DNA of 64,000 nucleotides, taken from contig CAIOGZ010000045.1 in assembly GCA_903858015.1 (NCBI GenBank), positions 7,178 through 71,177 on the forward strand, written 5' to 3'. Below the pieces are notes generated by a model, which worked only from the letters and a program-made list of their open reading frames with translations, had not been told where the DNA came from and did no database searches. The stretch's first letter is position 1, and the number at the start of each line of letters is the position of its first letter. Shown here one piece after another: positions 27,749 to 41,534 of this stretch. This DNA comes from an uncultured cyanobacterium. GTDB taxonomy: Bacteria; Cyanobacteriota; Cyanobacteriia; PCC-6307; Cyanobiaceae. Made by a program: the position numbers and the translations under genes.

Positions 27749-28231
27749 ATGCCTTTTCTGCTTTCGGAAACTTTTCAAACAAGTCTGCTGAAGCTCAACG
27801 GCGAGGAGCAGAAAGCGGCCAAACTTGCCGCATTCGAGCTCCAGATCAACGCTGCCAATCCTGGTCTGCAGTGCCACCGGCTCGACAACATCAAGGACAA
27901 GAACTTCTGGTCTGCTCGCGCCAGCCGTGACATCCGTCTGATCTTCCATCGGGTCGAGAGCAGCGCCATGCTCTGCTACGTCGACCATCACGATTCCGCC
28001 TACGACTGGGCTTCGCGCCGCAAGATCGAAACCCATCCCGTCACCGGTGCCGCCCAGATCGTGGAGATCCGCGAAACGGTTCGCGAGATCCAGATCCCCC
28101 TCCATGTCCCCGCTGAATCTCCGGCCACGCCGGAGCCCAAGCGGCCGCTCTCCAACCTCACGGAAGCCGACCTGCTCAGCTACGGCGTTCCTGCCGAGTG
28201 GATTCCTGATGTCCGCACAGCGGACGACGAC
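27749..28231 (+). pseudogene. 5'-only copy of the RelE-UvrD helicase gene
   Basis: Near-identical to 29901-30409 up to GCGGACGACGAC, then unrelated sequence. Confidence 0.9.
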
Positions 28232-28712
28232 TCTCCGCTATTGGATGGACCCGGAATCCACCTTGCAGCAAGGCTCCGCCTGCCCTTACTTCTCCCAATG
28301 CGCTCGCCGAAAAGCTAAAATCTTCGATTTGCAAGCACCTTGCCAAGCGAGAAACAAGCCATTCGCTATGCTCAGACATTAGGTCAAACTGTCGTATTGC
28401 CTCGTTGGTCATATGAAGGGTTGAAATGTCGATACCGACTTGAATTAGAGATCGAAACATCGCTACCAGCGGATGATCGCGATACGTCTTAGGGGAACGC
28501 CATATGCGACCAATAGATGGCTCATCCAATTTGCTGCCAAGTGCGGGTGCCCGCTCGACAAGGTTTCGATAGATTCTATCTACGGTCATTGGTTGGTTTT
28601 ATTTCTTATCCTACGTGAGCCGTATTGGCCTGCGGGTGGCAGGCCACCATGGACGGGTCCTTACATCTCTTACGATCAGGGGCTAGACTGAGCAAGGTTC
28701 TTGGCGCAGCTG

Positions 28713-29291
28713 ATGACCCCACAAGCTGAGTTTCAGGCCGCTGTTCTCGATCAGCTTCGCCGTGCACCGCTCGATCCTCCAGCCCAGGCAGCACTGCTGC
28801 AGGCGCTGACCTCTGTGGCCCCGCGGGAAGGTGCCGTTACCGCCAAGGCAGACGGCCCGCTCGCCGAATGGCTGGGAGAGCCCCCTGCCAATGCCGCACA
28901 GCTCGAGTTCGAAGCACTCCGGCGCAGCTTTGCCCTCCGCCACCAGCTCCTGGCCTCCACTATCGGTACAGCCGAGGTGAACGAGCTCCTCGCCGCCGGC
29001 AGCCGCCAGACGGTGCACGACCGCCTCAGGGCCGGCACCCTGCTGGGGATCCTTGATCAGGGGAAATGGCGCTTCCCCCTCTGGCAGTTCGACGCCGATG
29101 GCCCCAACGGTGTGATCGACGGACTGGCCCAGGTGCTGCAGGCCCTGCAGGTCTCCAACCTGGCCAAGGCCCGCTGGCTGCAAAAGCCCCATGCGGTTTT
29201 CGGCGGCTTCACCCCCTTGGATCTGCTCCGCCACGGCCGTCTCGAAGACGTATTGGCGGAAGCGGGCCAGGTGGGTCGTGGTCAGGATTGA
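28713..29291 (+). CDS. Xre/MbcA/ParS-like antitoxin (HTH plus toxin-binding C-terminus)
   Basis: SRQTVHDRLRAGTLL, WRFPLWQF, WLQKPHAVFGGFTPLDLL. Overlaps a RES gene. Confidence 0.75.
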   Translation: MTPQAEFQAAVLDQLRRAPLDPPAQAALLQALTSVAPREGAVTAKADGPLAEWLGEPPANAAQLEFEALRRSFALRHQLLASTIGTAEVNELLAAGSRQTVHDRLRAGTLLGILDQGKWRFPLWQFDADGPNGVIDGLAQVLQALQVSNLAKARWLQKPHAVFGGFTPLDLLRHGRLEDVLAEAGQVGRGQD

Positions 29292-29889
29292 TCCGCCCCC
29301 TCCCCGCAGGTCCACGTCTCCGCTGATCGAGATCCTGCCGATGGCAGCACCGTTGCTCCGCATCTACAGACCGCAGCCCTATGGCAGCAGTGCTTGCAGC
29401 TTCCGTTACGAGGGGCCGTTCTCACGCTTTGATCACCACGCCGATGGCCACTTGCGTGGAATTCACTACAGCGCACCTTCCTTGTCGTCTTGTGTCGTCG
29501 AAGTCTTCGGTGACACAGGGCTGATTGAACCACAGGGTTGCCAGCTGGTCCTGCTGCGCACAAACCGCCCCATGGCCCTGCTCGATCTACGAGGCAGCGG
29601 CGCCATGCGAGCCGGGAGTGTTGTTGCACTCAATGCCACAGCTGATCGATCGCTGAGTCAGCAGTGGTCTCGCTTTTTCTACGGCACAGCCGTAGCCGAT
29701 GAAAGACCGATCGATGGCTTGCTCTACAGCAATGCTCACAACGGCGAATCGGCCCTGGCCCTCTACGAACGGGCCGAAGCAGCGATCCACTGTGATGCCG
29801 AGCTGTCGCTTGCGGCGGACGAGCTTCGCAGCCGCCTGCTGGCTATCGCCAACGACCACGGCATGACCATGGCCTCATCCGGCTCCTGA
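29278..29889 (+). CDS. RES-domain toxin
   Basis: RIYR, RFDH, CVVEVFG, GLLYSNAHN. GTG start overlapping the antitoxin. Confidence 0.8.
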   Translation: MVRIDPPPPRRSTSPLIEILPMAAPLLRIYRPQPYGSSACSFRYEGPFSRFDHHADGHLRGIHYSAPSLSSCVVEVFGDTGLIEPQGCQLVLLRTNRPMALLDLRGSGAMRAGSVVALNATADRSLSQQWSRFFYGTAVADERPIDGLLYSNAHNGESALALYERAEAAIHCDAELSLAADELRSRLLAIANDHGMTMASSGS

Positions 29890-29900
29890 ACCACAATCCC

Positions 29901-32006
29901 ATGGCTTTCCTCCTCGCCGACAGCTTCCAATCCAGCCTTGAGAAGCTCAGTGGAGAAGAGCAGAAAGCTGCCAAGCTCGCCGCCTTCGAGCTGCAAATCA
30001 ACTCTGCCAATCCTGGTCTGCAATGCCACCGCCTCGACAACATCAAGGACAAGAACTTCTGGTCTGCCCGCGCCAGCCGTGACATCCGGCTGATCTTCCA
30101 TCAGGTTGAGAGCAGCGTGATGCTCTGCTACGTCGACCATCACGATCTCGCCTACGACTGGGCCTCACGGCGCAAGATCGAAACCCATCCCGTCACCGGC
30201 GCCGCCCAGATCGTGGAGATCCGCGAAACGGTTCGCGAGATTCACATCCCCATTCACGTCCCCGCAGCAGCGGCCACAGCTACATCCGCAGCCACAACCA
30301 CAGCAGCCCCTGAGCCCAAGCGGCCTCTTTCCAACCTCACGGAAGCCGACCTGCTCAGCTACGGCGTTCCCGCCGAGTGGATCCCTGATGTCCGCACAGC
30401 GGACGACGACATGCTGCTGGTGATCGCCTCCCATCTCCCCGGTGAGGCTGCCGAAGCGATCATCGATCTGGCCACCGGCACCACACCCACCAAGCCGGTG
30501 GTAAGGCAGCCAGACCAGAGCAATCCTTACGAGCACCCCGATGCTCAGCGCCGCTTCCGGGTGCTCACCGGCACCGAAGAGCTGGCCCGGGCGCTGGACT
30601 ACCCCTGGGAGCGCTGGATCGTCTTCCTTCACCCCAGCCAGGCTGACTGGGTGAGCCGCTCCTTCAATGGCCCCACCCGCGTGCAGGGCTCTGCTGGTAC
30701 GGGCAAAACCGTTGTGGCCCTGCACCGCGCCGTTCATCTGGCTCGTAGAAAACCCGAAGCCAGGGTGTTGCTGACCACCTTCTCCGAGCCCCTGGCGGCC
30801 CTACTGCAGGACAAACTCCATCGCCTGATCCAGGGGGAGCCCAGGCTGATTGAGCGCCTGGATGTGCTGGCCATGCAAGAACTTGGCGAGCGGATGCACG
30901 CCGCCCAGCTCGGTAAGCCGCAGCTCATTACTCCCGAGGACCTTCGCGCATTGATTCAGCGGTATGCGCCGGTGGAGATCAGCCGCGTCTATGGCGAGGC
31001 CTTCGTGGTGGAGGAGTTCAGCGAGATCGTCGATGCTTTCGGGCTGCGCGACTGGGACAGCTACCGCGATGTCCGCCGCCTCGGCCGTAAGAGCCGCCTC
31101 AATGAGGCCAAGCGCCGTTTGCTCTGGGAGGGCTTCGAGGCCGTCCTCCAGGAGCTGGAGCGCTCAGGCCAGATCACGCCCCAACAGCTCTTCCATCGCA
31201 CCGCCGAACAGCTGCACCGCAGCGGCGTCAGGCCCTACCAGCACATCGTGGTGGACGAATGCCAGGACATCACAGCCGCCCAGCTCCGTCTCCTGGCAGC
31301 TCTGGCGGGGACCGGCCCCGATGCCCTTTTCTTTGCGGGGGATCTCGGTCAGCGCATCTTCCAACAGCCCTTCTCCTGGACCCAGTACGGCGTGGACATC
31401 CGCGGCCGCTCGCGCACCCTCCGCATCAATTACCGCACCTCCCACCAGATTCGCAGCCAAGCCGATCAGCTGCTCGATCCCGAGTCCCGCGACGTGGACG
31501 GCAACGTGCAGGACCGGCGCGGCGCCATCTCCGTGTTCAACGGACCGGAGCCCGACATCCGGGAATGCGAGGACTCAGGCAGCGAAACCGAGCAGGTGGC
31601 GGGCTGGATTGAACAGCGCCGCAGCGAAGGCCTCACCCCCAGGGAGTTCGGCATCTTCGTGCGCAGCGAGGCCGAGATCACCCGTGCCGAGGCTGCTCTC
31701 CAGCTAGCTGAGCTGCCCTACGAGCGTCTGCAGCCTTCGGCCATCCGTCTTGGCAGCAAGGCCACCCTCTCCACCATGCACCTGGCCAAAGGGCTGGAGT
31801 TCCGCGCCGTGATCGTGATGGCCTGCGATGAAGACGTAATCCCCAACGCCGAGCGCATCAAGGCCATCACCGACGACAGCGACCTCGATGAAGTGGTGGC
31901 CACCGAACGCCACCTGCTCTACGTGGCCTGCACCCGCGCCCGGGATCACCTGCTGATCACCAGTGGTGACACCTGCTCGGAGTTCGTGGAGGATCTGCGC
32001 GGGTGA
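29901..32006 (+). CDS. UvrD/Rep-like SF1 helicase with N-terminal RelE/ParE-fold domain
   Basis: GSAGTGKT, VVDECQD, AGDLGQRIF, INYRT, AKGLEF, LYVACTRAR. N-terminal FWSARASRDIRLI...LCYVDHHD is RelE-like. Confidence 0.88.
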   Translation: MAFLLADSFQSSLEKLSGEEQKAAKLAAFELQINSANPGLQCHRLDNIKDKNFWSARASRDIRLIFHQVESSVMLCYVDHHDLAYDWASRRKIETHPVTGAAQIVEIRETVREIHIPIHVPAAAATATSAATTTAAPEPKRPLSNLTEADLLSYGVPAEWIPDVRTADDDMLLVIASHLPGEAAEAIIDLATGTTPTKPVVRQPDQSNPYEHPDAQRRFRVLTGTEELARALDYPWERWIVFLHPSQADWVSRSFNGPTRVQGSAGTGKTVVALHRAVHLARRKPEARVLLTTFSEPLAALLQDKLHRLIQGEPRLIERLDVLAMQELGERMHAAQLGKPQLITPEDLRALIQRYAPVEISRVYGEAFVVEEFSEIVDAFGLRDWDSYRDVRRLGRKSRLNEAKRRLLWEGFEAVLQELERSGQITPQQLFHRTAEQLHRSGVRPYQHIVVDECQDITAAQLRLLAALAGTGPDALFFAGDLGQRIFQQPFSWTQYGVDIRGRSRTLRINYRTSHQIRSQADQLLDPESRDVDGNVQDRRGAISVFNGPEPDIRECEDSGSETEQVAGWIEQRRSEGLTPREFGIFVRSEAEITRAEAALQLAELPYERLQPSAIRLGSKATLSTMHLAKGLEFRAVIVMACDEDVIPNAERIKAITDDSDLDEVVATERHLLYVACTRARDHLLITSGDTCSEFVEDLRG

Positions 32007-32268: not shown

Positions 32269-35200
32269 TTGCGCCCCGCCTCCCCCGCCACGCCCAAGCC
32301 TTACCGCCGCTGGAGTCCGCCGTCACCAGCCAGGGCGGCAAGTTCCCGGCTGACCCGGCCCTGGTGGGCCCTATCCCTACTGCTGGCGGCGGCAGCCGTC
32401 ACATCCCCACTGCTACTGCCCCCCGCCCGAGCCCAAGCCCCCCCAGCCCCAGCTGCCGGCCAGTCCGGCCCCCCCGCCGACCCGCGCCCCTTCCCGGCCC
32501 TTGACCCCGGCATGCATACCGCGATCATCAAGCGTCTCGCGGTGGACCGGGCCGGCCGCTGGCTGGTCACCGCCTCCGACGACAAGACCGCCCGGGTGTG
32601 GGACCTGGCCAACGGCGGCCGGCTCGCCGCGGTGCTGCGGGTGCCGGTGGGGGAGGGCAATGAAGGCAAGCTCTACGCCGTGGCCCTCAGCCCCGTTGGC
32701 GCCCTGGTGGCCCTGGGCGGCTTCACAGGGCCTGATGGCAAGGAACAAGCGATCTACCTGTTCGATCGCGCCAGCGGCCGCCTCCTTCAGCGCCTCGGCG
32801 GCCTGCCCAGCTCTGTCAACCATCTGGCCTTCTCCGCCGACGGCCGCCGCCTCGCCGCCGCCCTCGGCTGGGCCAACGGCCTCCGGGTGTATGAACCCGG
32901 CGCCGACGGCCGCTGGGCCCAGGTGGCCGCCGATGCCGCCTACGGGGATGACAGCTACAGCGTGGAGTTCGACGCCAGCGGCCGCCTGCTCGCCACCAGC
33001 AGGGACGGTGATCTGCGGCTCTACGCCGCCGGCCAGCGGGGCCCCCTCACCCCCCTGCAGCGCCGCCCCGCCCCCGGTGGCCGGGAGCCGTTCTTCGCGC
33101 GGTTTTCGCCTGATGGTCGCCGCATTGCCGTGGGGTTCTACGACAGCAGCGCCGTCACCGTGCTCGATGGCGCCAGCCTGGCCCCCCTCCCCTCCCCCGA
33201 CACCAGCGGGTTACGCAACGGCAATGTGAGCTCCATGGACTGGAGCGCCGACGGCCAGCGCCTGCTCGCCGCCGGCAAGTACGGCCAGGACGATGGCAGC
33301 AATCCTCTGGTGGCCTGGCCCAGCGCCGGAGGCGCCCCCCGATTCCTGCCCCTGGGGATGAGCGACACCGTGATGGACCTGCGGCCCTTGGCCGACGGAC
33401 GACTTGTGTTCGGCGGGGGAGGGCCGGCCTGGGGGGTGCTCGACGCCCAGCTCCAGCGCACCTCCCTCTTCCGCGGCCCGCCGGTGCTCGACCATCGCAG
33501 CAATGCCGCCAGCAGCAACAGCCACGCGGGCTATGAGGCGTTCCGCCTGGCCCCCGCCGGCGAGGGCCACTGGCTTGAATTCCGCGCCGTGAGCCGCGAC
33601 GCCGCCGGCGCCCGCGCCCGCCTGGTGCGTTTCGACCTGGCCGAGCGCCGCCTGCTTCTGCCCACCTCCCCCGCCCCCGCCGGCCTCGCCCCCCGCACCA
33701 CCGGCCTGCCCATCGACGGCTGGGAAGACACCACCACCCCCACCCTGGCGGGCAAGCCCCTGCCGCTGAAGCCGTACGAAGCCTCCCGCAGCCTGGCGAT
33801 CAGCGCCGATCGCCAGCGCTTTGCCCTCGGCAGCAACTGGGCCGTGCGCCTGTTCGGCGCCGAAGGCCAGCGCCGCTGGCGCACCCCCACCCCCGCTGCC
33901 GCCTGGCTGGTGAACCTCAGCCCCGACGGCCGCTTTGTGGTGGCCGCCCTCGGCGATGGCACGATCCGCTGGTATCGCACCCAGAAAGAAGGCTCCGCGG
34001 CGGCCGGCAGCGAGGCCCTCGCCCTGTTTGTGCATCCCGATCTGCAGCGCTGGATCCTCTGGACCCCCGAGGGCTTCTACGACGCCTCCCCCGGCGGCGC
34101 CGAGCTGTTCGGCTACCAGCTCAACAACGGCCGCGAGGCCGCCGGCAGCTTCATCCGCTCCGCCCAGCTGCAACGCCAGTTCCTGCGGCCCGATCTGATC
34201 GCTCGCCGCCTTTCCGGCCGCGCAGACGATGACGCTGCCATCGCCGCCGCCGTGGCCGAGGTGGGTGATGTGCGCCAGGTGCTGATGGCTGGCCGGCCGC
34301 CCCTGGTGCGGCCCGACACCCGCAACGGCGAGGCGGTGCGCACCCTGCCCAACGGCGATCTGGAGATCCATTTCCAGGTGGTGGATCAGGGCGGCGGCGT
34401 CGGCGATCTGGAGGTGCGGCTCAACGGCGTGCGGATCGAGGCCCGCCAGAACCTGCGCATCGGCGATCGCCCCGCCCTGGTGTTCACCCCGCCGCCACGC
34501 CGGCCCAACCAGCCGAGCAAGCCGGTGCTCACCATCGCCGCCGGCAACAGCCGCGGTGTGCTCGGCGAGCCCCTGCGTTTCGAGCTCACGACCACCATCA
34601 GCCAGGAGCCCCCCACCCTGCATGTGCTGGCGGTGGGAATCACCAACTACAAGAGCACGGTGCTGCAATCCGGCGTGCGCTTTGCGGCCGCCGATGCCCG
34701 AGCCCTCGTCACCACCCTGCAGTTGCCGGGCATCCTGGCCGATGCCCGACTCGGCTCCGTGGTGCTCATTCCCGAGGGGGAGGCCAGCCGCGACCGCATC
34801 CGCCAGGAGCTGCGGGTGATGGCCGGCAAGGTGAAGCCCGGCGATCGCTTCGTGCTCCACCTGGCCGGCCACGGCACCGCCCTCAATGGCGAGTACTACT
34901 TCCTCACCCAGGAGCTGGACAACGACAGCGAGGCGTCCATTCGCCGCCAAGCCCTCTCCGGCAACGAGCTGCGGGAGCTGCTGCGGCCGATCCAGGCCAG
35001 CGGCGGCACCCTGCTGCTGCTCGATACCTGCAGCTCCGGCACCTACGGCTCCCCCGCCCAGCGGGATCTGCAGGCCGCCGTGCGCCGCTTCGAAGAACTC
35101 GATGGCCGGCTGATGCTGGCGGCCGCGGGCGATCGCAGGATGGCCCTGGAAAGCCCCTACCAAGGGAGCGGCATCTTCACGGCGGTGGTGATCGAGGGGC

Positions 35201-35376
35201 TGCTCGGCAAGGCCGACAAATACGGCAATGACCGGGTGGTGCGGGCGAGCGAACTGCTCGGCTACGTGGTGGAGACGGTGCCGGAGATCACCGCGCGGGA
35301 GTTCCAGGGGGTGCGCCAGCAGCCCTACCAGAGCTCCCAGGGCAACTTCCCTCTCACCCGCTCCGGTGCTCGATGA
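32269..35376 (+). CDS. Secreted WD40-repeat protein with C-terminal caspase-like (C14) protease
   Basis: Signal-like WWALSLLLAAAAV...PARA-Q; WD40 blades (TASDDKTARVWD); dyad HLAGHG and LLLDTCSSG. Start uncertain. Confidence 0.85.
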   Translation: MRPASPATPKPYRRWSPPSPARAASSRLTRPWWALSLLLAAAAVTSPLLLPPARAQAPPAPAAGQSGPPADPRPFPALDPGMHTAIIKRLAVDRAGRWLVTASDDKTARVWDLANGGRLAAVLRVPVGEGNEGKLYAVALSPVGALVALGGFTGPDGKEQAIYLFDRASGRLLQRLGGLPSSVNHLAFSADGRRLAAALGWANGLRVYEPGADGRWAQVAADAAYGDDSYSVEFDASGRLLATSRDGDLRLYAAGQRGPLTPLQRRPAPGGREPFFARFSPDGRRIAVGFYDSSAVTVLDGASLAPLPSPDTSGLRNGNVSSMDWSADGQRLLAAGKYGQDDGSNPLVAWPSAGGAPRFLPLGMSDTVMDLRPLADGRLVFGGGGPAWGVLDAQLQRTSLFRGPPVLDHRSNAASSNSHAGYEAFRLAPAGEGHWLEFRAVSRDAAGARARLVRFDLAERRLLLPTSPAPAGLAPRTTGLPIDGWEDTTTPTLAGKPLPLKPYEASRSLAISADRQRFALGSNWAVRLFGAEGQRRWRTPTPAAAWLVNLSPDGRFVVAALGDGTIRWYRTQKEGSAAAGSEALALFVHPDLQRWILWTPEGFYDASPGGAELFGYQLNNGREAAGSFIRSAQLQRQFLRPDLIARRLSGRADDDAAIAAAVAEVGDVRQVLMAGRPPLVRPDTRNGEAVRTLPNGDLEIHFQVVDQGGGVGDLEVRLNGVRIEARQNLRIGDRPALVFTPPPRRPNQPSKPVLTIAAGNSRGVLGEPLRFELTTTISQEPPTLHVLAVGITNYKSTVLQSGVRFAAADARALVTTLQLPGILADARLGSVVLIPEGEASRDRIRQELRVMAGKVKPGDRFVLHLAGHGTALNGEYYFLTQELDNDSEASIRRQALSGNELRELLRPIQASGGTLLLLDTCSSGTYGSPAQRDLQAAVRRFEELDGRLMLAAAGDRRMALESPYQGSGIFTAVVIEGLLGKADKYGNDRVVRASELLGYVVETVPEITAREFQGVRQQPYQSSQGNFPLTRSGAR

Positions 35377-36950
35377 GCGCCACGCCCGCAGCGCCGGGGG
35401 CTGACCAGCCCTTGAAGGTGTTCGTGTCCTACTCCCATCAAGACGACGCCCTGCGGCAGCGGCTCGATGTGCACCTCAGCCTGCTGAAACGCCAGGGGGT
35501 TCTGGAGGTGTGGCACGACCGGCGCCTGCAGGGCGGCGAGCACTGGGAGGAGGCGATCGACCAGGCCCTGGAGGAGGCCGACATCGTGCTGCTGCTGATC
35601 AGCCCCGATTTCCTCGCCTCCGACTACTGCTACGGCCGCGAACTCACGGCGGCACTGGAGCGCGACCGGCGCAACGAGGCGGTGGTGGTGCCGCTGCTGC
35701 TCCACCCGTGCGACTGGCAGAGCGCCCCCTTCGCCCGCTGCCAGGCCTTCCCCCGCGACAACCAGCCGATCAGCATCCACCCGCGGGGTGAGAACGCGGC
35801 CTTCAGCCTGGTGGCGGCCGAGCTGCGCCGCCTCGCCGAAACCCTGCGCAAGCGGCGGCGGGGCGAGGCGCACCAGCCTCCCTCTGGCGCGGCGCACGAT
35901 CCGGGCGGCACGGCGGCGGCAAGGCGGTGGCGGCGCTGGTGGCTGGCGCCGCTGGCCACCCTGGCGGTGGCGGTGCCGGCCGGGATGCTGCTGAGCCAGG
36001 CGCGGGTGACGGCCGGGCTGGCGGATCTGCGCCTGGGGGCCTATACCCGTGCCCTCACAGCGTTCGAGGCGGCCCGCCTGCTCAACCCCCTCCACCCCCT
36101 AGCCCGCTGCGGCGCCCGGGCGGCCGCCATCGGCAGCGGCCTGGCGGCGATGGCCAGCAACAGTCCGGATCTGGCCCGTGATGTGGCGGCCCTGCCCCAG
36201 AGCGGCCCCTGCGGCGCCCAGCGCGAGCTGTTCCACGGCGATCTCACCCTCGAGCGCTATCTGCTCAACCGCGACCGGAAGGACTGGGACCTGGCGGCGG
36301 CCGCCTTTGAGCGCGCCCTGGTGATGGATCCGGAGCTGGCGGAGGCGGAGCAGCGGCTTGGCACCCTCGCGGATCTGCAGAACGACCTGCCCGCGGCGCA
36401 GCGCCGCTTCGAGAGCGCCCGACGGCTGGCGGCAGGGCAGCCCCTGCTGGCCAAACGCTACCGCAATGGTCTGGCGAAGGTGCTGCTGCAGGGCAGCGCC
36501 GCCGAGCGGGAGCGGGCTTTGGTGTTGTTCGACGGCGACCGGGGCAACCCGGCCTCGGATGTGGAGGCGGCGATGCAGCGCTGGCGCCAGGGGGGCGGAG
36601 CGCCGCTCGGCCAGGCCCTGGAGCGTCTGCCACGCGAGCCGCCGCCCTCCCTGCGGGGCGAGGGCGGCGGCGAACCCTGGGGCTTCAAGCTGCGCGATGG
36701 CCAGGTGGTGGCGGTGGGGCTGCTTCGCGACCAGCGCTGCCTTCTGGCCCAGGCCCGTGCCGCGACCCTCCATCTGGACGGCCAGCTGGCGGAGGCGAAC
36801 AACGAGCGGGCCAGCAGCCGCGCCACCTGCAGCGGCTCCGCCTCCACCATCAACCTCGTGGTCTGCGACCGACTCTCCCAGGCCGCCAGCAGCGGCGCGC
36901 CCACCACCGCCACCCGTGCCTGGTTGCGCTGCGCCGACTTCAGGGGTTGA
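35373..36950 (+). CDS. TIR-domain / single TM / TPR membrane protein
   Basis: KVFVSYSHQD...LLISPDFLASDYCYGREL (putative catalytic Glu kept), RRWRRWW then a TM helix, TPR-like helices. ATGA overlap with the caspase gene. Confidence 0.85.
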   Translation: MSATPAAPGADQPLKVFVSYSHQDDALRQRLDVHLSLLKRQGVLEVWHDRRLQGGEHWEEAIDQALEEADIVLLLISPDFLASDYCYGRELTAALERDRRNEAVVVPLLLHPCDWQSAPFARCQAFPRDNQPISIHPRGENAAFSLVAAELRRLAETLRKRRRGEAHQPPSGAAHDPGGTAAARRWRRWWLAPLATLAVAVPAGMLLSQARVTAGLADLRLGAYTRALTAFEAARLLNPLHPLARCGARAAAIGSGLAAMASNSPDLARDVAALPQSGPCGAQRELFHGDLTLERYLLNRDRKDWDLAAAAFERALVMDPELAEAEQRLGTLADLQNDLPAAQRRFESARRLAAGQPLLAKRYRNGLAKVLLQGSAAERERALVLFDGDRGNPASDVEAAMQRWRQGGGAPLGQALERLPREPPPSLRGEGGGEPWGFKLRDGQVVAVGLLRDQRCLLAQARAATLHLDGQLAEANNERASSRATCSGSASTINLVVCDRLSQAASSGAPTTATRAWLRCADFRG

Positions 36951-37283: not shown

Positions 37284-37550
37284 ATGACTCGCGTCATGGA
37301 CGTCCTCCCCAGCCGGGTGTTCATGAACGGCAACAGCCAGGCCGTGCGCATCCCCGCGGAGTTCCGGCTTTCCACAGACCGGGTGCAGATCAGTCGCACG
37401 GCTGAAGGTGATCTGCTCATCCATCCCTGTCCACCTCAGCGGGGCAAGGCCCTGCTCGATCTGCTGGCCCGCTTCGACGCCGACTTCGTGGCGGCTCTGG
37501 AACAGCAGCAGCAGGAGCAACTGCCGGTTCAGGAACGTGAATCGCTGTGA
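37284..37550 (+). CDS. vapB: AbrB/MazE-type antitoxin VapB
   Basis: VFMNGNSQAVRIPAEFR; overlaps a PIN toxin gene. Confidence 0.88.
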   Translation: MTRVMDVLPSRVFMNGNSQAVRIPAEFRLSTDRVQISRTAEGDLLIHPCPPQRGKALLDLLARFDADFVAALEQQQQEQLPVQERESL

Positions 37551-37955
37551 TCTACCTGCTTGATACCAACATCCTCATCTACCTGGTCAAAAATCGCCCG
37601 CCCCAGGTGGCCGAACGGATTGATGCCCTCAAGGACCAGGATTCCCTGGCGATGTCGTTCATCACCTGGGCGGAGCTGCTCCAAGGCGCCCAAGGCAGCC
37701 AACGCCGTGAGGCAACCCTTGCGCAACTCGATGCGCTCTCCCGGCAGGTGCCCGTGCTCTACCCCGAAGGGCAGGCCATCTGCCGCCATTACGCTCAGCA
37801 GGCCACAGTGCTCAAGCGCCTGGGCACGCCGATTGGGGCCAACGATCTCTGGATCGCTTGCCACAGCCTCGCCGTTGGTGCCACCTTGGAGCCACAATAT
37901 TCGCGAGTTTGCTCGTATTGAGGGCCTCACCCTGATCGACTGGGCGGTTGCCTGA
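37547..37955 (+). pseudogene. vapC: PIN-domain toxin VapC with 2-bp deletion frameshift near the 3' end
   Basis: YLLDTNI and IGANDLWIACH are intact. At about 37889 TTGGAGCCAC replaces the expected TTGGTGAGCCAC; the normal tail SHNIREFARIEGLTLIDW continues in another frame. Confidence 0.8.
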
Positions 37956-37959
37956 GGCC

Positions 37960-38305
37960 ATGCCATTTCTCCTCGCCGTCAGCTTCCAATCCAGCCTTGA
38001 GAAGCTCAGTGGATAAGATTAGAAAGCCGCCAAGCTCGCCGCCTTCAAGCTGCAAATCAATCCCGCCAACCCTGGTCTGCAATACCACCGGCTTGACAAC
38101 ATCAAAGCTAAAAACTTCTGGTCAGCCCACGCCAGCCGCGACATTCGTCTGATCTTCCGCCGGGTCGAGAGCAGCGTGATGCTCTGCTAAGTCGACCATC
38201 ACGACCTTGCCTACGTCTGGGCTTCGCGGCGCAAGATCGAAACCAATCCCGACACTGGCGCCGCGCAGATCGTCGTGATCCTTGAAACGGTTCGCGAGAT
38301 CCAGA
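37960..38305 (+). pseudogene. Degenerate 5' copy of the RelE-UvrD helicase gene with in-frame stops
   Basis: Homologous to 29901-30245; TAA/TAG at about 38014-38022 and later. Confidence 0.88.
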
Positions 38306-38775: not shown

Positions 38776-39279
38776 TTACATGGGATCTGATGTTGCTGTT
38801 CCCACCAGCCAGTTGAAGGGTATGCGAACCCAGTCAGCAACCCTGTACTTCTCACCCTGGCGTGGATCCAGCAGCACATGGCAATCCGTGGTGCTGATCA
38901 CCGAGGGAACCCGCACTCCGCAGATCTGGTGCCCTTCAGCAGCAGCCTGATCTACTACCTTCAGGAATTCACCCCCAATCCTCTGGGCGTTTGGCCCCGC
39001 TGGTCTCACATTCCAATTGGTGGGGAGCAGCATTCCTAGCTCTTCCAGGCTCAAAACGGATCCCTCCGGCACCGCAATGGCCGCGATCGTGAGCTCCGCC
39101 ACGGTGGCCCAACCTGGACGACTGACCACTTCGAGAATCGCCAGCGACTGTACTTCTGCCGTATAAAGAATGGTGCTTCGCTTGTCATTGAAACGCCAGC
39201 CATCGCGTGCCACGGACGCACTGGCATCAAGCGGATCAAACGCAGACCGTGGCTTGCGACTGGCGCGATACACCAACAT
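38776..39279 (-). CDS. RES-family NAD+ phosphorylase-type toxin
   Basis: VYR, GWRFN, LAILEV, VPSVI, VLLDP. Confidence 0.85.
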   Translation of the reverse strand: MLVYRASRKPRSAFDPLDASASVARDGWRFNDKRSTILYTAEVQSLAILEVVSRPGWATVAELTIAAIAVPEGSVLSLEELGMLLPTNWNVRPAGPNAQRIGGEFLKVVDQAAAEGHQICGVRVPSVISTTDCHVLLDPRQGEKYRVADWVRIPFNWLVGTATSDPM

Positions 39280-39287
39280 CCTTCGCT

Positions 39288-39881
39288 TCAGAGAGGCCCG
39301 CCCTCGGCTTGGGTTTGCAGTTCATTGAGCACGATGCGCTCGCCCTCACTGGTTTTAATCAACTCTGCTGGTGTATGGCCGCCCAGGGCATAATTAGAAG
39401 TGTGCATATAAGCTCGGGCGGCTTCGAAGTCTCCAAAAACCTCAGCGGCTGTCAGAGTGGCTCGCGCGCCACGCATGGCCCGTTCGCTTGCCGCCGTGTC
39501 CAGGGCGCGTCCAAGACGCGACTTGATCGTTTTGAAGCTGAGCTCAAAGAATCCTTCCGCCTCTGAGAGGGTATCCAGGAACATGGATGAGGAAACCAGT
39601 AGCGATTCCCCGGCCAAGCCCGCGATCAGGCGACGATGCACATCCAAAGGATCAGGGTGGGCAGGCACCCTGCTGTGGCGAAGCAGGAGAAAGCTGCGGG
39701 TCAGCTGCCAGACAGTCGCCAACTCCACCTTTTTGAGCTGCCTCACCTGCTGACGCAGCTCCTCGTCTTCCAAAACCGCGAGCAGCCAGGCATCGATCGA
39801 GGCGCTATCGGGCCCACCAGAACCCAATAGCACCTCGTGCCCAAGCTCCGCTTCGGCACCCACCGCACCAATCACCGCCAT
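39288..39881 (-). CDS. Xre/MbcA/ParS antitoxin
   Basis: SERAMRGAR...AEVFGDFEAARAYMHTSNYALGGHTPAELI...GERIVLNEL; upstream of RES. Confidence 0.85.
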   Translation of the reverse strand: MAVIGAVGAEAELGHEVLLGSGGPDSASIDAWLLAVLEDEELRQQVRQLKKVELATVWQLTRSFLLLRHSRVPAHPDPLDVHRRLIAGLAGESLLVSSSMFLDTLSEAEGFFELSFKTIKSRLGRALDTAASERAMRGARATLTAAEVFGDFEAARAYMHTSNYALGGHTPAELIKTSEGERIVLNELQTQAEGGPL

Positions 39882-39956
39882 TGGAACTTTCCATGACTGT
39901 TCATGGATTATGGCACACCTGACCACTGAGCGTCCTTGTGCGCATCAGCTTGGCCG

Positions 39957-39977
39957 TGTACAGTTGCTTTGTACAAT
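39957..39977 (+). promoter_or_regulatory. Twin TGTACA palindromes overlapping a TACAAT -10 box; probable Phd-type operator
   Basis: TGTACA at 39957 and 39970, TACAAT at 39972-39977, 14 bp before the antitoxin ATG. Confidence 0.5.
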
Positions 39978-39991
39978 GGAGTGCGCCTGGC

Positions 39992-40234
39992 ATGATTCGC
40001 GTCTCCGTATCCGATCTACGGCAAAACCTTCCCGCCTTCCTTAAGCGAGTTCAGGCCGGCGAGCAGCTGCAGATCACATCCCGTGGACGGGTCATCGCCC
40101 GCATCGAGCCAGAGCGCGACCCGGCTGAGGAGGCACGCCAATGGCTGCTCGCTCTTCGTGATCGCGTTTCCCTGGGTGACGTGGTTAACCCCATTCCCGA
40201 TCTCGAATGGAGTGGTGATGCGAATCATCTGTGA
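39992..40234 (+). CDS. Phd/YefM-family antitoxin
   Basis: VSVSDLRQNLPAFLKRVQAGEQLQITSRGRVIARI. Confidence 0.88.
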   Translation: MIRVSVSDLRQNLPAFLKRVQAGEQLQITSRGRVIARIEPERDPAEEARQWLLALRDRVSLGDVVNPIPDLEWSGDANHL

Positions 40235-40619
40235 CACCCACATCCCCCTGTTCTGGGCGAATGCTCCCTCACGGCTCAGCAGGAGTGCTACCGCAGCCCT
40301 TGAAAAAGGCCGGCAAGACGGCCAGCTCGCCATTGCCGATATTTCCCTTTGGGAAATGGCCCTTCTTCATGAACGCGGTCGTCTTCTGCTTCCTGATGAT
40401 GTCCCAGCCGTTAACTATCTCTCCCATCTCCTTCAAGCTCTGAGCCTGAATGTCTTGCCGATCACGACGGAAATCGCTGTTCTCTCTCGCAGCTCCATCT
40501 TTCAGCACGGGGATCCTGCTGATCGCCTGATCGCGGCCACTGCGCTCCACGGCCGCTGGCCGCTGATCACAGCTGATGAAAAGCTGCGTGCCCTTCCTGA
40601 TCTCCAGTGTATTTGGTAG
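40218..40619 (+). CDS. vapC: PIN-domain toxin VapC
   Basis: ICDTH, SLWE, HGDPADRLIAATA, LITADEKL. Confidence 0.88.
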   Translation: MRIICDTHIPLFWANAPSRLSRSATAALEKGRQDGQLAIADISLWEMALLHERGRLLLPDDVPAVNYLSHLLQALSLNVLPITTEIAVLSRSSIFQHGDPADRLIAATALHGRWPLITADEKLRALPDLQCIW

Positions 40620-40626
40620 CCGCCCC

Positions 40627-41534
40627 ATGGCTCTGCCAATCCAGGCCTGCATTGCCACCGGCTCGACAACATCAAGGACAAGAACTTCTGGTCTGCACGT
40701 GCCAGCCGTGATATTCGTCTGATATTCCATCGGGTCGAGAGCAGCTTGATGCTCTGCTACGTGGCCTACCACGATTCTACCGACGAATGCCAGGACATCA
40801 CCGCCGCCCAGCTCCGGCTCTTGACCGCTCTAGCGGGCACCAGCACCGATGCCCTGTTCTTCGCGGGGGATCTCGGCCAGCGCATCTTCCAGCAGCCCTT
40901 CTCCTGGACCCAATACGGCGTGGACATCCGCGGCCGCTCGCGCACCCTGCGCATCAACTACCGCACCTCCCATCAGATTCGCAGCCAAGCCGATCAGCTG
41001 CTCGATCCGGAGTCCCGCGACGTGGACGGCAACGTCCAAGAGCGGCGCGGCGCCATTTCCGTCCTCAACGGACCGGAGCCCGACATCCCAGAATGCGAGG
41101 ACTCAGGCAGCGAGACCGAGCAGGTAGCTGCCTGGATTGAGCAGCGCCGCAGCGAAGGCCTTACCCCCAGGGAGTTCGGCATCTTCGTGCGCAGCGAAGC
41201 CGAGAGCCCCCGTGCAAAATCAGCTCTGGAGTTAGCTGGGCTGCCCTACGAACGGCTGCAGCCCTCGGCCATGCGCCTTGGCGGCAAGGCCACCCTCTCC
41301 ACCATGCACCTGGCCAAAGGGCTGGAGTTCCGGGCCGTGATCGTGGTGGCCTGCGATGACGACGTAATCCCCAACGCCGAGCGCATCAATGCCATCACCG
41401 ACGACAGGGACCTCGATGAAGTGGTGGCCACCGAACGCCATTTGCTCTACCTGGCCTGCACCCGCGCCCGCGATCACCTGCTGATCACTAGCGGCGATAC
41501 CTGCTCGGAGTTTGTGGAGGACCTGCTCGGGTGA
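40627..41534 (+). pseudogene. RelE-UvrD helicase copy with two internal deletions
   Basis: ATGGCT is joined to CTGCCAATCC (about 95 bp lost), and the CACGAT region is joined to GACGAATGCCAGG (about 1.1 kb lost). The remainder matches 31254-32006. Confidence 0.9.

What the first reader, a model, noticed from the sequence alone, without database searches (positions are those of the whole stretch)
32269..36950. Secreted WD40-caspase coupled to a TIR-TM-TPR receptor: a Toll-like trans-envelope module
Seen: the genes overlap by ATGA. The caspase has a signal peptide and an intact His/Cys dyad. The partner has a cytoplasmic TIR with Glu, positive-inside RRWRR, a TM helix and an external TPR. Established: TIRs are NADases or signal makers in bacterial immunity, and TIR plus caspase pairs occur in type IV Thoeris, but there both act in the cytoplasm. 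Inference: the order may be reversed here, with a periplasmic propeller-protease sensing a ligand and cleaving or clustering the TPR ectodomain to activate TIR, like a protease-Toll cascade.
Basis: partly seen in the sequence, partly recalled or inferred. Interest (0 to 1): 0.68.

Follow-up and report, generated by a model that had tools for sequence, protein, structure and literature searches.

The report
Exported WD40-caspase paired with membrane TIR receptor
A picocyanobacterium carries a conserved two-gene unit, an exported protease plus a membrane protein with an immune-type TIR enzyme inside the cell and a repeat domain outside, that looks like an undescribed bacterial system reading the cell envelope, but its function is untested.

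Summary
ORF1 (32269-35376) encodes a signal peptide, two WD40 propellers, an Ig-like domain and a C14 caspase with its catalytic residues intact. ORF2 (35373-36950) overlaps it by ATGA. It encodes a TIR domain with the catalytic Glu, an Arg-rich stretch, one TM helix and a TPR superhelix.

The pairing is not chance. The exported WD40-caspase family is large, with at least 550 genome loci in many diderm phyla. The TIR-TM-TPR partner occurs in only one clade of it: 15 of 18 members there and 0 of 54 outside. That clade spans Cyanobacteriota, Acidobacteriota, Pseudomonadota and Desulfuromonadales, and the flanking genes differ between loci.

The partner's ectodomain is the constant part. Three different TIR heads are fused to it. 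In Cyanobium, the Ig-caspase half of ORF1 co-varies with the partner, while the propellers have a separate history with a breakpoint near residue 670.

This is not type IV Thoeris, whose proteins are cytoplasmic. No paper I searched describes the arrangement.

The best reading, at about 0.45, is an outside-in, protease-gated TIR receptor. It would work like DegS/RseA or the Toll protease cascade and probably serves defence or regulated death. The direction of signalling, cleavage of the partner and NADase activity are all untested.

The parts
32269..35376 (+). ORF1: exported WD40-WD40-Ig-caspase protein (1035 aa, TTG start)
32269..32433 (+). Predicted Sec signal peptide (residues 1-55). It has a long basic n-region, the h-region WWALSLLLAAAAVTSPLLL and a predicted cut after A53-R54-A55.
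   Evidence: Heuristic plus family comparison. The region is disordered in the AF2 model.
32491..34158 (+). Tandem WD40 beta-propellers (residues about 75-630), the most conserved part of the family
34159..34608 (+). Helical linker (631-673) and Ig-like beta-sandwich (679-772). A recombination breakpoint lies near residue 670.
34615..35361 (+). Peptidase C14 (caspase/metacaspase-like) domain, residues 783-1031. His868 is at nt 34870-34872 and Cys921 at 35029-35031. Asp809 and Asp919 form the S1 pocket.
35373..35376 (+). ATGA overlap of the ORF1 stop and the ORF2 start (translational coupling). The same 4-bp overlap is seen in L001-L005, L012 and L017.
35373..36950 (+). ORF2: TIR-TM-TPR receptor-like protein (525 aa)
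35412..35870 (+). Cytoplasmic TIR domain (residues 14-166). The catalytic-type Glu90 is at nt 35640-35642.
35922..35996 (+). RRWRRW (residues 184-189) followed by the single TM helix (190-208)
35997..36947 (+). Extracytoplasmic TPR superhelix with a beta-hairpin (432-450), six cysteines and the conserved motifs YRNGLA, PWGF and QRC...C

Best explanation
This is a self-contained, horizontally mobile two-gene trans-envelope module of diderm bacteria.

ORF1 is exported by Sec to the periplasm (in a cyanobacterium possibly the thylakoid lumen). There it is a soluble, Arg/Lys-specific caspase-type protease whose double WD40 propeller is the input domain. ORF2 is a type II single-pass membrane protein, with a TIR domain in the cytoplasm and a disulfide-stabilised TPR superhelix in the periplasm.

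Proposed mechanism (inferred, not shown):
1. An envelope-level cue bound by the conserved propellers activates or repositions the caspase.
2. The caspase acts on its matched TPR ectodomain by cleavage or by induced clustering. This step would resemble DegS cutting RseA, or the protease cascade upstream of Toll.
3. The cytoplasmic TIR domains are thereby freed to oligomerise and consume NAD+ or make an ADPR-derived signal.
4. The result is growth arrest or death of an attacked or damaged cell.

Shown: domain content, catalytic residues, predicted topology, translational coupling, clade-specific conservation across phyla, and co-variation of the caspase half with the partner. Inferred: localisation in vivo, the cue, cleavage, direction of signalling, TIR activity and a defence role.
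For: Anatomy and topology.

Export is a family trait. Nearly all homologues with ATG starts have canonical signal peptides.

Conservation of the pair:
- The genes are adjacent, usually with a 4-bp overlap, in Cyanobium, Accumulibacter, Methylococcaceae, Acidobacteriota, Thermoanaerobaculia, Desulfuromonadales and Burkholderiales, and the flanking genes differ between loci.
- On a tree of 72 WD40-caspases, all partner-linked loci fall in one clade with support 96, 15 of 18 once L035 is counted. None of the other 54 has the partner.
- The ectodomain profile matches only loci of that clade. In the 1.84-billion-protein library, every complete single-stretch match carries a TIR head. One 'headless' case has a separate TIR gene directly upstream and the WD40-caspase before that.

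Coupling in the periplasm:
- The ectodomain is homologous in all partners, while three TIR types are fused to it: ThsB1-like, L035-type and L006-type.
- L001 against L006: propellers 88% identical, caspase 41%, TIR 19% and ectodomain 36%, with a sharp breakpoint near residue 670. L001 against L005: 78%, 89%, 83% and 82%.
- Two WD40-caspases flank one receptor in L030 and L034.

Catalytic residues are kept in all linked pairs. The one clade member that lost the Cys (Methylovulum, L007) also lacks the partner.

Conflict-system context:
- The TIR's nearest relatives are defence-island TIRs.
- The window neighbourhood holds Xre/RES, VapBC and a GajB-like UvrD helicase.
- Among 24 same-genus genomes none has a full-length match to ORF2, and two (G004, G009) have ectodomain-only matches.
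Against: - There is no experimental or expression evidence.
- Signal peptide and topology come from heuristics, not a trained predictor. The window's start is TTG, which gives an unusually long n-region of about 31 residues.
- The propellers are the most conserved part of the protein: 67-77% in Cyanobium against 47-61% for the caspase. This is unlike typical fast-evolving phage sensors.
- Most of the wider WD40-caspase family lacks any TIR partner, so the protease has a function of its own in the envelope.
- Nothing shows cleavage of the ectodomain, and no conserved basic cleavage loop could be pinned down.
- The module was not found on viral contigs.
- Co-variation across all 12 paired loci is only modest, with Spearman 0.5-0.57 for both halves. 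The clear signal comes from the cyanobacterial subset.
Confidence: 0.45

Rival explanations
1. Inside-out system. The membrane TIR-TM-TPR protein is the sensor or switch, responding to a cytoplasmic cue such as NAD+ state or a phage protein. Its periplasmic TPR domain holds the WD40-caspase inactive. On triggering, the caspase is released and degrades envelope proteins, killing the cell from outside the membrane.
For: - TPR domains commonly dock partner proteins, and the caspase half co-varies with the partner, as a binding pair would.
- ThsB-like TIRs act as sensors in Thoeris (paper 10.64898/2025.12.03.692087).
- The protease is catalytically intact in all pairs.
Against: - A single-pass helix with a disordered juxtamembrane linker is a poor conduit for inside-out conformational signalling.
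- TIR heads are swapped while the ectodomain stays constant. That fits an interchangeable output better than a specific sensor.
- Loci with two caspases per receptor fit several inputs better than several effectors.
- The conserved catalytic Glu implies that the TIR is an enzyme with an output of its own.
Confidence: 0.17
2. Envelope-stress or programmed-death module that is not antiviral. The exported WD40-caspase is primarily an envelope quality-control or developmental protease. In this clade it has recruited a membrane TIR protein to couple envelope damage (oxidative, nutrient or predator-inflicted) to NAD+ metabolism or dormancy.
For: - Most of the family (54 of 72 sampled) lacks TIR and sits beside lipoproteins, Gly-zipper proteins, a CsgG-like caspase fusion, serpins or housekeeping genes.
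- The propellers are highly conserved across phyla, which suggests a conserved endogenous ligand.
- Metacaspase-type genes are common in cyanobacteria (PMC3501461).
Against: - The distribution is patchy even within the genus.
- The module has been transferred across phyla with changing flanks.
- It lies in a TA/defence-type island.
- The TIR's relatives are defence-island TIRs.
- These are hallmarks of conflict systems rather than of core physiology.
Confidence: 0.2
3. A type IV Thoeris-like cytoplasmic system. The TIR makes N7-cADPR or a related nucleotide that directly activates the caspase, and the 'signal peptide' is not used.
For: - The same two domain families are adjacent.
- The TIR hits PADLOC ThsB1 at 6.5e-53.
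- Gene callers often start the caspase at the internal Met82, which would remove the signal peptide.
Against: - The region upstream of Met82 is conserved as protein across phyla, including the KPFPxIExGMHTA motif and the hydrophobic-plus-AxA segment.
- The partner has a conserved TM helix and a Cys-paired ectodomain.
- The type IV papers describe soluble proteins without WD40, TM or TPR.
- No nucleotide-binding domain is evident in ORF1.
- NCBIfam gave no Thoeris hit for ORF1.
Confidence: 0.03

Closest known systems
Type IV Thoeris (TIR protein ThsB plus caspase-like protease ThsE; Rousset et al., bioRxiv 10.1101/2024.10.24.620036, Science 2025)
   Same: A TIR gene and a caspase-family protease gene sit together in one small operon, in a defence-type genomic context. 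The TIR is of the ThsB-like kind (PADLOC ThsB1).
   Different: - Type IV is cytoplasmic, and the TIR activates the protease through N7-cADPR.
- Here the protease has a signal peptide, two WD40 propellers and an Ig-like domain.
- Here the TIR protein is membrane-anchored with a periplasmic TPR domain.
- A cytoplasmic nucleotide could not reach the protease, so the wiring must differ, and the order of action is probably reversed.
DegS/RseA-type regulated proteolysis of a type II single-pass membrane protein (own knowledge, not checked in papers here)
   Same: A periplasmic protease with a sensor domain is paired with a single-pass N-in/C-out protein. That protein's cytoplasmic N-terminal domain is the output and its periplasmic C-terminal domain is the protease's target. 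This is the best bacterial analogue of the proposed logic.
   Different: - DegS is an HtrA serine protease with a PDZ sensor, not a caspase with WD40 propellers.
- The output there is an anti-sigma domain, not a TIR.
- Cleavage, and any site-2 step, are unproven here.
Toll/Toll-like receptors and the Drosophila extracellular protease cascade (own knowledge)
   Same: A solenoid-repeat ectodomain, a single TM helix and a cytoplasmic TIR, with an extracellular protease upstream.
   Different: - The ectodomain is TPR, not LRR.
- The orientation is inverted, with the TIR at the N-terminus.
- The protease is a caspase-type cysteine protease.
- Animal TLR TIRs are scaffolds, whereas bacterial TIRs with this Glu are usually NAD+-processing enzymes.
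- Apart from the TIR domain the resemblance is convergent, not homologous.
Bacterial gasdermin and related systems in which a caspase-like protease fused to repeat domains (WD40, TPR, NACHT) cleaves the neighbouring effector to activate it (own knowledge)
   Same: A repeat-domain-plus-C14-protease gene lies next to its presumed substrate and effector, and activation is by proteolysis.
   Different: - Those systems are cytoplasmic and the effector is a pore-former.
- Here the protease is exported, and the effector domain (TIR) lies across the membrane from it.
Exported WD40-caspase family without a partner ('caspase family protein'/'WD40 repeat protein' annotations, e.g. Methylovulum psychrotolerans, Rhodospira trueperi)
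   Same: ORF1 is a full-length member, with the same signal peptide, propellers, Ig-like domain and caspase.
   Different: Only one clade is coupled to the TIR-TM-TPR gene. The rest stand alone or sit beside lipoproteins, serpins and similar genes.

Membership tests
Type IV Thoeris | A TIR-domain gene adjacent to a caspase-like protease gene | tested here: met
   TIR_2 at 3e-19 and Peptidase_C14 at 7e-6 in overlapping genes
Type IV Thoeris | Both proteins are soluble and cytoplasmic, so that a TIR-made nucleotide can reach the protease | tested here: not met
   ORF1 has a conserved signal peptide, and ORF2 has a conserved TM helix with a Cys-paired ectodomain. These are predictions, not localisation data.
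Type IV Thoeris | The protease is activated by N7-cADPR made by the TIR | not testable with these tools
   This needs biochemistry.
Type IV Thoeris | Sequence membership of the protease in the ThsE family | tested here: inconclusive
   NCBIfam and PADLOC gave no Thoeris hit for ORF1. The only hits were caspase_w_EACC1 at 59 bits (cut-off 140) and a generic PADLOC 'caspase' at 5.9e-9. I do not know whether either library holds a ThsE model.
Thoeris in general (ThsB TIR plus an effector with a signal-binding domain) | ThsB-type TIR | tested here: met
   PADLOC PDLC00420 ThsB1 at 6.5e-53 over residues 15-177, and 4.5e-64 in the Methylococcaceae partner
Thoeris in general (ThsB TIR plus an effector with a signal-binding domain) | An adjacent cytoplasmic or membrane effector with a nucleotide-sensing domain (SLOG, Macro, SLATT and the like) | tested here: not met
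   The only conserved neighbour is the exported WD40-caspase, and flanking genes vary between loci.
Peptidase family C14 (caspase/metacaspase/orthocaspase) | Caspase-hemoglobinase fold with a His-Cys dyad | tested here: met
   The Pfam hit is above its cut-off. The motifs are LAGHG (His868) and DTCSSG (Cys921). The AF2 model shows an alpha/beta domain at 783-1031.
Peptidase family C14 (caspase/metacaspase/orthocaspase) | Acidic S1 pocket giving Arg/Lys specificity (metacaspase/orthocaspase type) | tested here: inconclusive
   Asp809 and Asp919 are conserved at the positions expected from the metacaspase alignment. Specificity itself was not tested.
EACC1-associated caspase (NCBIfam NF047832) | Score above the curated cut-off, and an EACC1 partner | tested here: not met
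   59.2 bits against a cut-off of 140, and no EACC1 gene adjacent
Toll-like receptor architecture | LRR ectodomain, single TM helix, C-terminal cytoplasmic TIR | tested here: not met
   The ectodomain is TPR and the TIR is N-terminal. Only the topological logic is shared.

The most novel reading that the evidence does not exclude
This clade is a prokaryotic counterpart of the Toll logic. It would be an immune-type receptor that reads the periplasm through a dedicated extracellular protease. A WD40-caspase senses a conserved sign of envelope breach, such as phage entry, predator attack or wall damage. It cleaves its matched TPR ectodomain, and this (possibly followed by intramembrane cleavage) lets the TIR domain assemble and collapse NAD+. 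The Ig-caspase-plus-receptor cassette would be exchangeable between conserved propeller 'front ends', and TIR heads exchangeable on a constant ectodomain. Together with other exported-protease-plus-membrane-TIR modules noted in this scan, it would define an undescribed class of outside-in bacterial immunity.
Probability: 0.35. Interest if true: 0.85.

Novelty: new variant of a known kind. Interest (0 to 1): 0.68.

Why it matters
Known bacterial TIR systems (Thoeris types I-XI, TIR-SAVED, SPARTA, TIR-STING) sense and act in the cytoplasm, and the known TIR-caspase pair runs from TIR to caspase.

A conserved module that puts the caspase outside the membrane and the TIR inside would mean three things:
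- Bacteria couple extracytoplasmic proteolysis to TIR output. Until now that logic was associated with animal Toll signalling and with sigma-factor cascades.
- Infection or damage may be detected at the envelope, before the cytoplasm is reached.
- The evolutionary link between caspases and TIR domains in cell-death pathways has a second, independent wiring.

It is directly testable. There are two genes, three point mutants (Cys921, His868, Glu90), and clear read-outs: ectodomain cleavage, NAD+ level and survival.

Tried and rejected
- **Type IV Thoeris membership.** Rejected on topology and on the absence of WD40, TM or TPR in the type IV description.
- **Tat export.** No twin-arginine motif lies consistently next to the h-region across homologues, so Sec is more likely.
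- **Other copies in the same genome.** The genome has 22 TIR_2 matches. Besides ORF2 only a short 240-aa TIR protein on C11 has a TM helix after the TIR domain, and none of the others lies on a contig with either of the two other C14 genes. The ectodomain was not looked for in them.
- **Local TIR HMM.** It was too narrow to detect the divergent TIR heads of L006 and L012. Pfam found them.
- **Profile search with the ectodomain.** The top of the list was swamped by giant multi-TPR proteins that score by summed repeats. Only single-stretch matches covering the whole profile were used.
- **Foldseek of the whole ORF1 model.** It returned only generic tandem propellers and gave nothing on the caspase.
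- **Viral contigs.** Only TIR-only matches were found, not the module.
- **Mirror-tree correlation over all 12 pairs.** It did not discriminate between the propeller and caspase halves, with Spearman 0.50 against 0.53. Only the cyanobacterial mosaics were informative.
- **Literature.** Searches of the TIR, caspase and conflict-system papers found no description of this pairing.
- **Complex prediction.** No multimer tool was available, so docking of the caspase on the ectodomain could not be modelled.


Full report
**1. What is there**

The window is from a picocyanobacterium. The best named hits are Cyanobium, and the assembly is 3.84 Mb. Two + strand ORFs sit at exactly the coordinates given: 32269-35376 (1035 aa) and 35373-36950 (525 aa). 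They share ATGA.

*ORF1*
- Pfam finds WD40 repeats (9e-21) and Peptidase_C14 at residues 786-1023 (7e-6, above its cut-off).
- An AF2 model built on 21 homologues (pLDDT 81) gives this layout:
  - residues 1-66 disordered;
  - tandem propellers at about 75-630;
  - a helical linker at 631-673;
  - an Ig-like sandwich at 679-772;
  - a caspase fold at 783-1031.
- Foldseek matches tandem-propeller proteins.

*ORF2*
- It has TIR_2 at residues 16-136 (3e-19). It matches PADLOC's ThsB1 model at 6.5e-53.
- Its AF2 model (pLDDT 84) shows:
  - the TIR at 14-166;
  - a disordered linker at 167-184;
  - one long helix at 185-220 that contains the hydrophobic stretch 190-208;
  - an all-helical superhelix at 224-520 with one beta-hairpin.
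- The superhelix matches the OGT, consensus-TPR and APC TPR domains.

**2. Catalytic residues**

- The caspase aligns to metacaspase MCA2 through the SGHG-type motif.
- In 21 family members His868 and Asp919 are invariant, and Cys921 is present in at least 90%.
- All partner-linked caspases keep His, Cys and both pocket aspartates.
- The TIR has Glu90 in the conserved CxxxE(L/M) position that aligns with bacterial TIR NADases. It is kept in 13 of 14 partners, including the divergent heads.

**3. Topology**

*The start of ORF1*
- Upstream of the conserved KPFPxIExGMHTA motif, the only canonical in-frame start in the window is TTG 32269.
- It yields a basic n-region, the h-region WWALSLLLAAAAVTSPLLL and A-R-A|Q.
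- Gene callers often start homologues at the internal Met. However, homologues with upstream ATG starts have textbook signal peptides, for example MTRQSHRRGLVLGLLAAGSLLMPWSRARA|EPP. The pre-Met segment is conserved as protein across phyla.
- Export is therefore a trait of the family. No consistent twin-arginine motif is present.

*The partner, across 14 sequences*
- Every one has a single hydrophobic helix at about residues 160-250.
- K+R counts flanking the helix are 48 on the N side and 30 on the C side.
- Net charge favours N-in for 13 of the 14.
- Eleven of 14 ectodomains have an even number of cysteines. Two of these cysteines are nearly invariant, as expected for disulfides in an oxidising compartment.

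*Limits*
- No trained predictor was available, so this is strong inference, not proof.
- In a cyanobacterium the thylakoid lumen is an alternative destination.

**4. The pair is conserved, clade-specific and mobile**

- Close and distant partners (54-97% identity) always follow a WD40-caspase, usually with the same 4-bp overlap. The surrounding genes are unrelated from locus to locus.
- The pair recurs in Accumulibacter.
- It also recurs in Methylococcaceae, Terriglobia, Bryobacterales, Thermoanaerobaculia, Desulfuromonadales and a Burkholderiales MAG. In the last, the partner lies upstream of the caspase.
- A second cyanobacterial subgroup has a shorter partner (426-480 aa) with a divergent TIR.
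- The WD40-caspase family itself is far larger. At least 550 genome loci were confirmed, in many diderm phyla.
- On a FastTree of 72 members, every partner-linked locus lies in one clade of 18 with support 96.
  - Counting L035, 15 of the 18 have the partner.
  - The three exceptions are L013, where the contig ends 747 nt after the caspase; a Myxococcota MAG; and Methylovulum. The Methylovulum protein has also lost the catalytic Cys and gained a C-terminal TM anchor.
  - None of the other 54 has it. Their neighbours are lipoproteins, Gly-zipper proteins, a caspase-CsgG-like fusion, serpins or housekeeping genes.
- An HMM of the ectodomain matches only loci of the linked clade.
- In a profile search of 1.84 billion representatives:
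  - All complete single-stretch matches carry a TIR head.
  - One 'headless' 330-aa form turned out to sit behind a separate 146-aa TIR gene and a WD40-caspase.

**5. Clues to how the two proteins relate**

(a) The ectodomain is homologous in all partners. Shared features are YRNxLA, the PWxF hairpin and QRC...C. At least three kinds of TIR head are fused to it: PADLOC ThsB1-like, an L035 type, and an L006/L012 type with no PADLOC hit. The constant link is therefore between ectodomain and caspase, both of which are periplasmic.

(b) In Cyanobium the caspase protein is a mosaic. Pairwise identities are:

| Pair | Propellers | Caspase | TIR | Ectodomain |
|---|---|---|---|---|
| L001 vs L006 | 88% | 41% | 19% | 36% |
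| L001 vs L005 | 78% | 89% | 83% | 82% |

- A sliding window puts the breakpoint at about residue 670, the start of the Ig-like domain.
- The Ig-caspase half and the partner gene therefore travel and diverge together as a cassette. This is what a specific enzyme-substrate or binding pair would do. The propellers are a conserved front end.

(c) Two loci have the order caspase - partner - caspase (L030, L034), and one has tandem caspases without a partner (L024).

(d) The propellers are the most conserved region across phyla. This points to a conserved ligand, meaning an envelope component or a damage signal. It argues against a variable phage protein.

**6. Context**

- The module lies among Xre/RES and VapBC toxin-antitoxin pairs and a UvrD helicase with GajB-like similarity.
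- Pieces of that helicase gene are repeated four times around the module.
- The nearest free-standing relatives of the TIR are about 317-aa TIR+Y4lF proteins in defence-type islands.
- Among 24 genomes of the same genus, none has a full-length match to ORF2. Two (G004, G009) have ectodomain-only matches, probably the divergent type.
- The module was not found on viral contigs.

**7. Mechanism**

The best-supported reading is an outside-in, protease-gated TIR receptor.
- The exported WD40-caspase is the input. Its matched TPR ectodomain is its target or docking site. The cytoplasmic TIR is the output.
- The closest bacterial analogy is DegS/RseA. The closest overall analogy is the protease cascade upstream of Toll. 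Repeat-fused caspase-like proteases that cleave neighbouring gasdermins show that protease-activates-neighbour is an established bacterial immune logic (own knowledge).
- I put this at about 0.45.
- Rivals are:
  - an inside-out system in which the caspase is the effector (0.17);
  - a non-antiviral envelope-stress or death module (0.20);
  - a cytoplasmic type IV-like system (0.03).
- Cleavage, direction of signalling, TIR activity and any phenotype are all untested.

**8. Comparison with what is known**

- It is not type IV Thoeris, because the defining cytoplasmic wiring cannot apply.
- It is not an EACC1 caspase. The score is 59 bits against a cut-off of 140.
- None of the papers searched mentions a signal-peptide WD40-caspase coupled to a TIR-TM-TPR protein. 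The papers were:
  - the Thoeris surveys;
  - the Aravind-group conflict-system papers PMC7159879 and PMC8195603;
  - the prokaryotic metacaspase survey PMC3501461.
  
- Earlier AI notes of this scan describe analogous modules elsewhere, namely an exported trypsin-WD40 plus TIR-TM-TPR, and a membrane TIR plus an exported pseudo-caspase. I did not test them. They are leads suggesting a wider class.

**9. Verdict**

The domains are known. The arrangement, the topology and the implied wiring are not described, so I class it as a new variant of a known kind. It is well suited to a simple experimental test.

Noticed in passing
window 27749-28048, 29901-30200, 37960-38259, 40633-40789; and 31254-31553 vs 40782-41081: The 5' part of the UvrD/GajB-like helicase gene (29901-32006) occurs in four copies at 80-94% identity, and its 3' half in two copies at 92%. 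These copies bracket the caspase-TIR module and the neighbouring toxin-antitoxin genes. The region looks like a hotspot where cassettes were inserted with duplication of helicase fragments.
   Followed up: partly
whole genome G000 (e.g. C46:29868-30233, C12:119874-120236, C5:8739-9005): The genome holds 22 TIR_2 matches, many in proteins of 500-1500 aa. Only ORF2 combines a TIR with a TM helix near residue 190. A 240-aa TIR protein on C11 also has a TM helix.
   Followed up: partly
L007:6001-9012 (Methylovulum psychrotolerans, P0138): This member of the partner-linked clade has lost the catalytic Cys (DTYSAS), gained a C-terminal TM anchor and has no TIR-TM-TPR neighbour. It may be a decayed or repurposed version.
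   Followed up: partly
L030:1-4254 and L034:2-3838; L024:3961-8440: Two loci have the order WD40-caspase, TIR-TM-TPR, second WD40-caspase. A Gallionellaceae locus has two tandem WD40-caspases without a partner.
   Followed up: partly
L100:1524-5993: Here the partner is split into a 146-aa TIR gene and a 330-aa TM-TPR gene, 99 nt apart, behind the WD40-caspase. This is either a real split or a frameshifted gene.
   Followed up: no
L018:7915-10296; downstream genes of A2 members: In WD40-caspase clades without TIR, neighbours include a Peptidase_C14-CsgG-like fusion, LPP20 and Gly-zipper lipoproteins, and two serpins. This hints at other exported protease networks.
   Followed up: no
window 28701-29889, 37287-37921, 38776-39926, 39938-40619: Toxin-antitoxin genes are dense around the module. 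There is an Xre/MbcA-type antitoxin with an unassigned downstream ORF, a MazE/AbrB-like antitoxin with a PIN toxin, RES with Xre, and a second PIN toxin with a small upstream ORF.
   Followed up: partly
P0050 vs window ORF1: A metagenomic homologue is 89% identical in the propellers but only 43-53% identical in the Ig-caspase half. It is a second example of the breakpoint near residue 670.
   Followed up: partly
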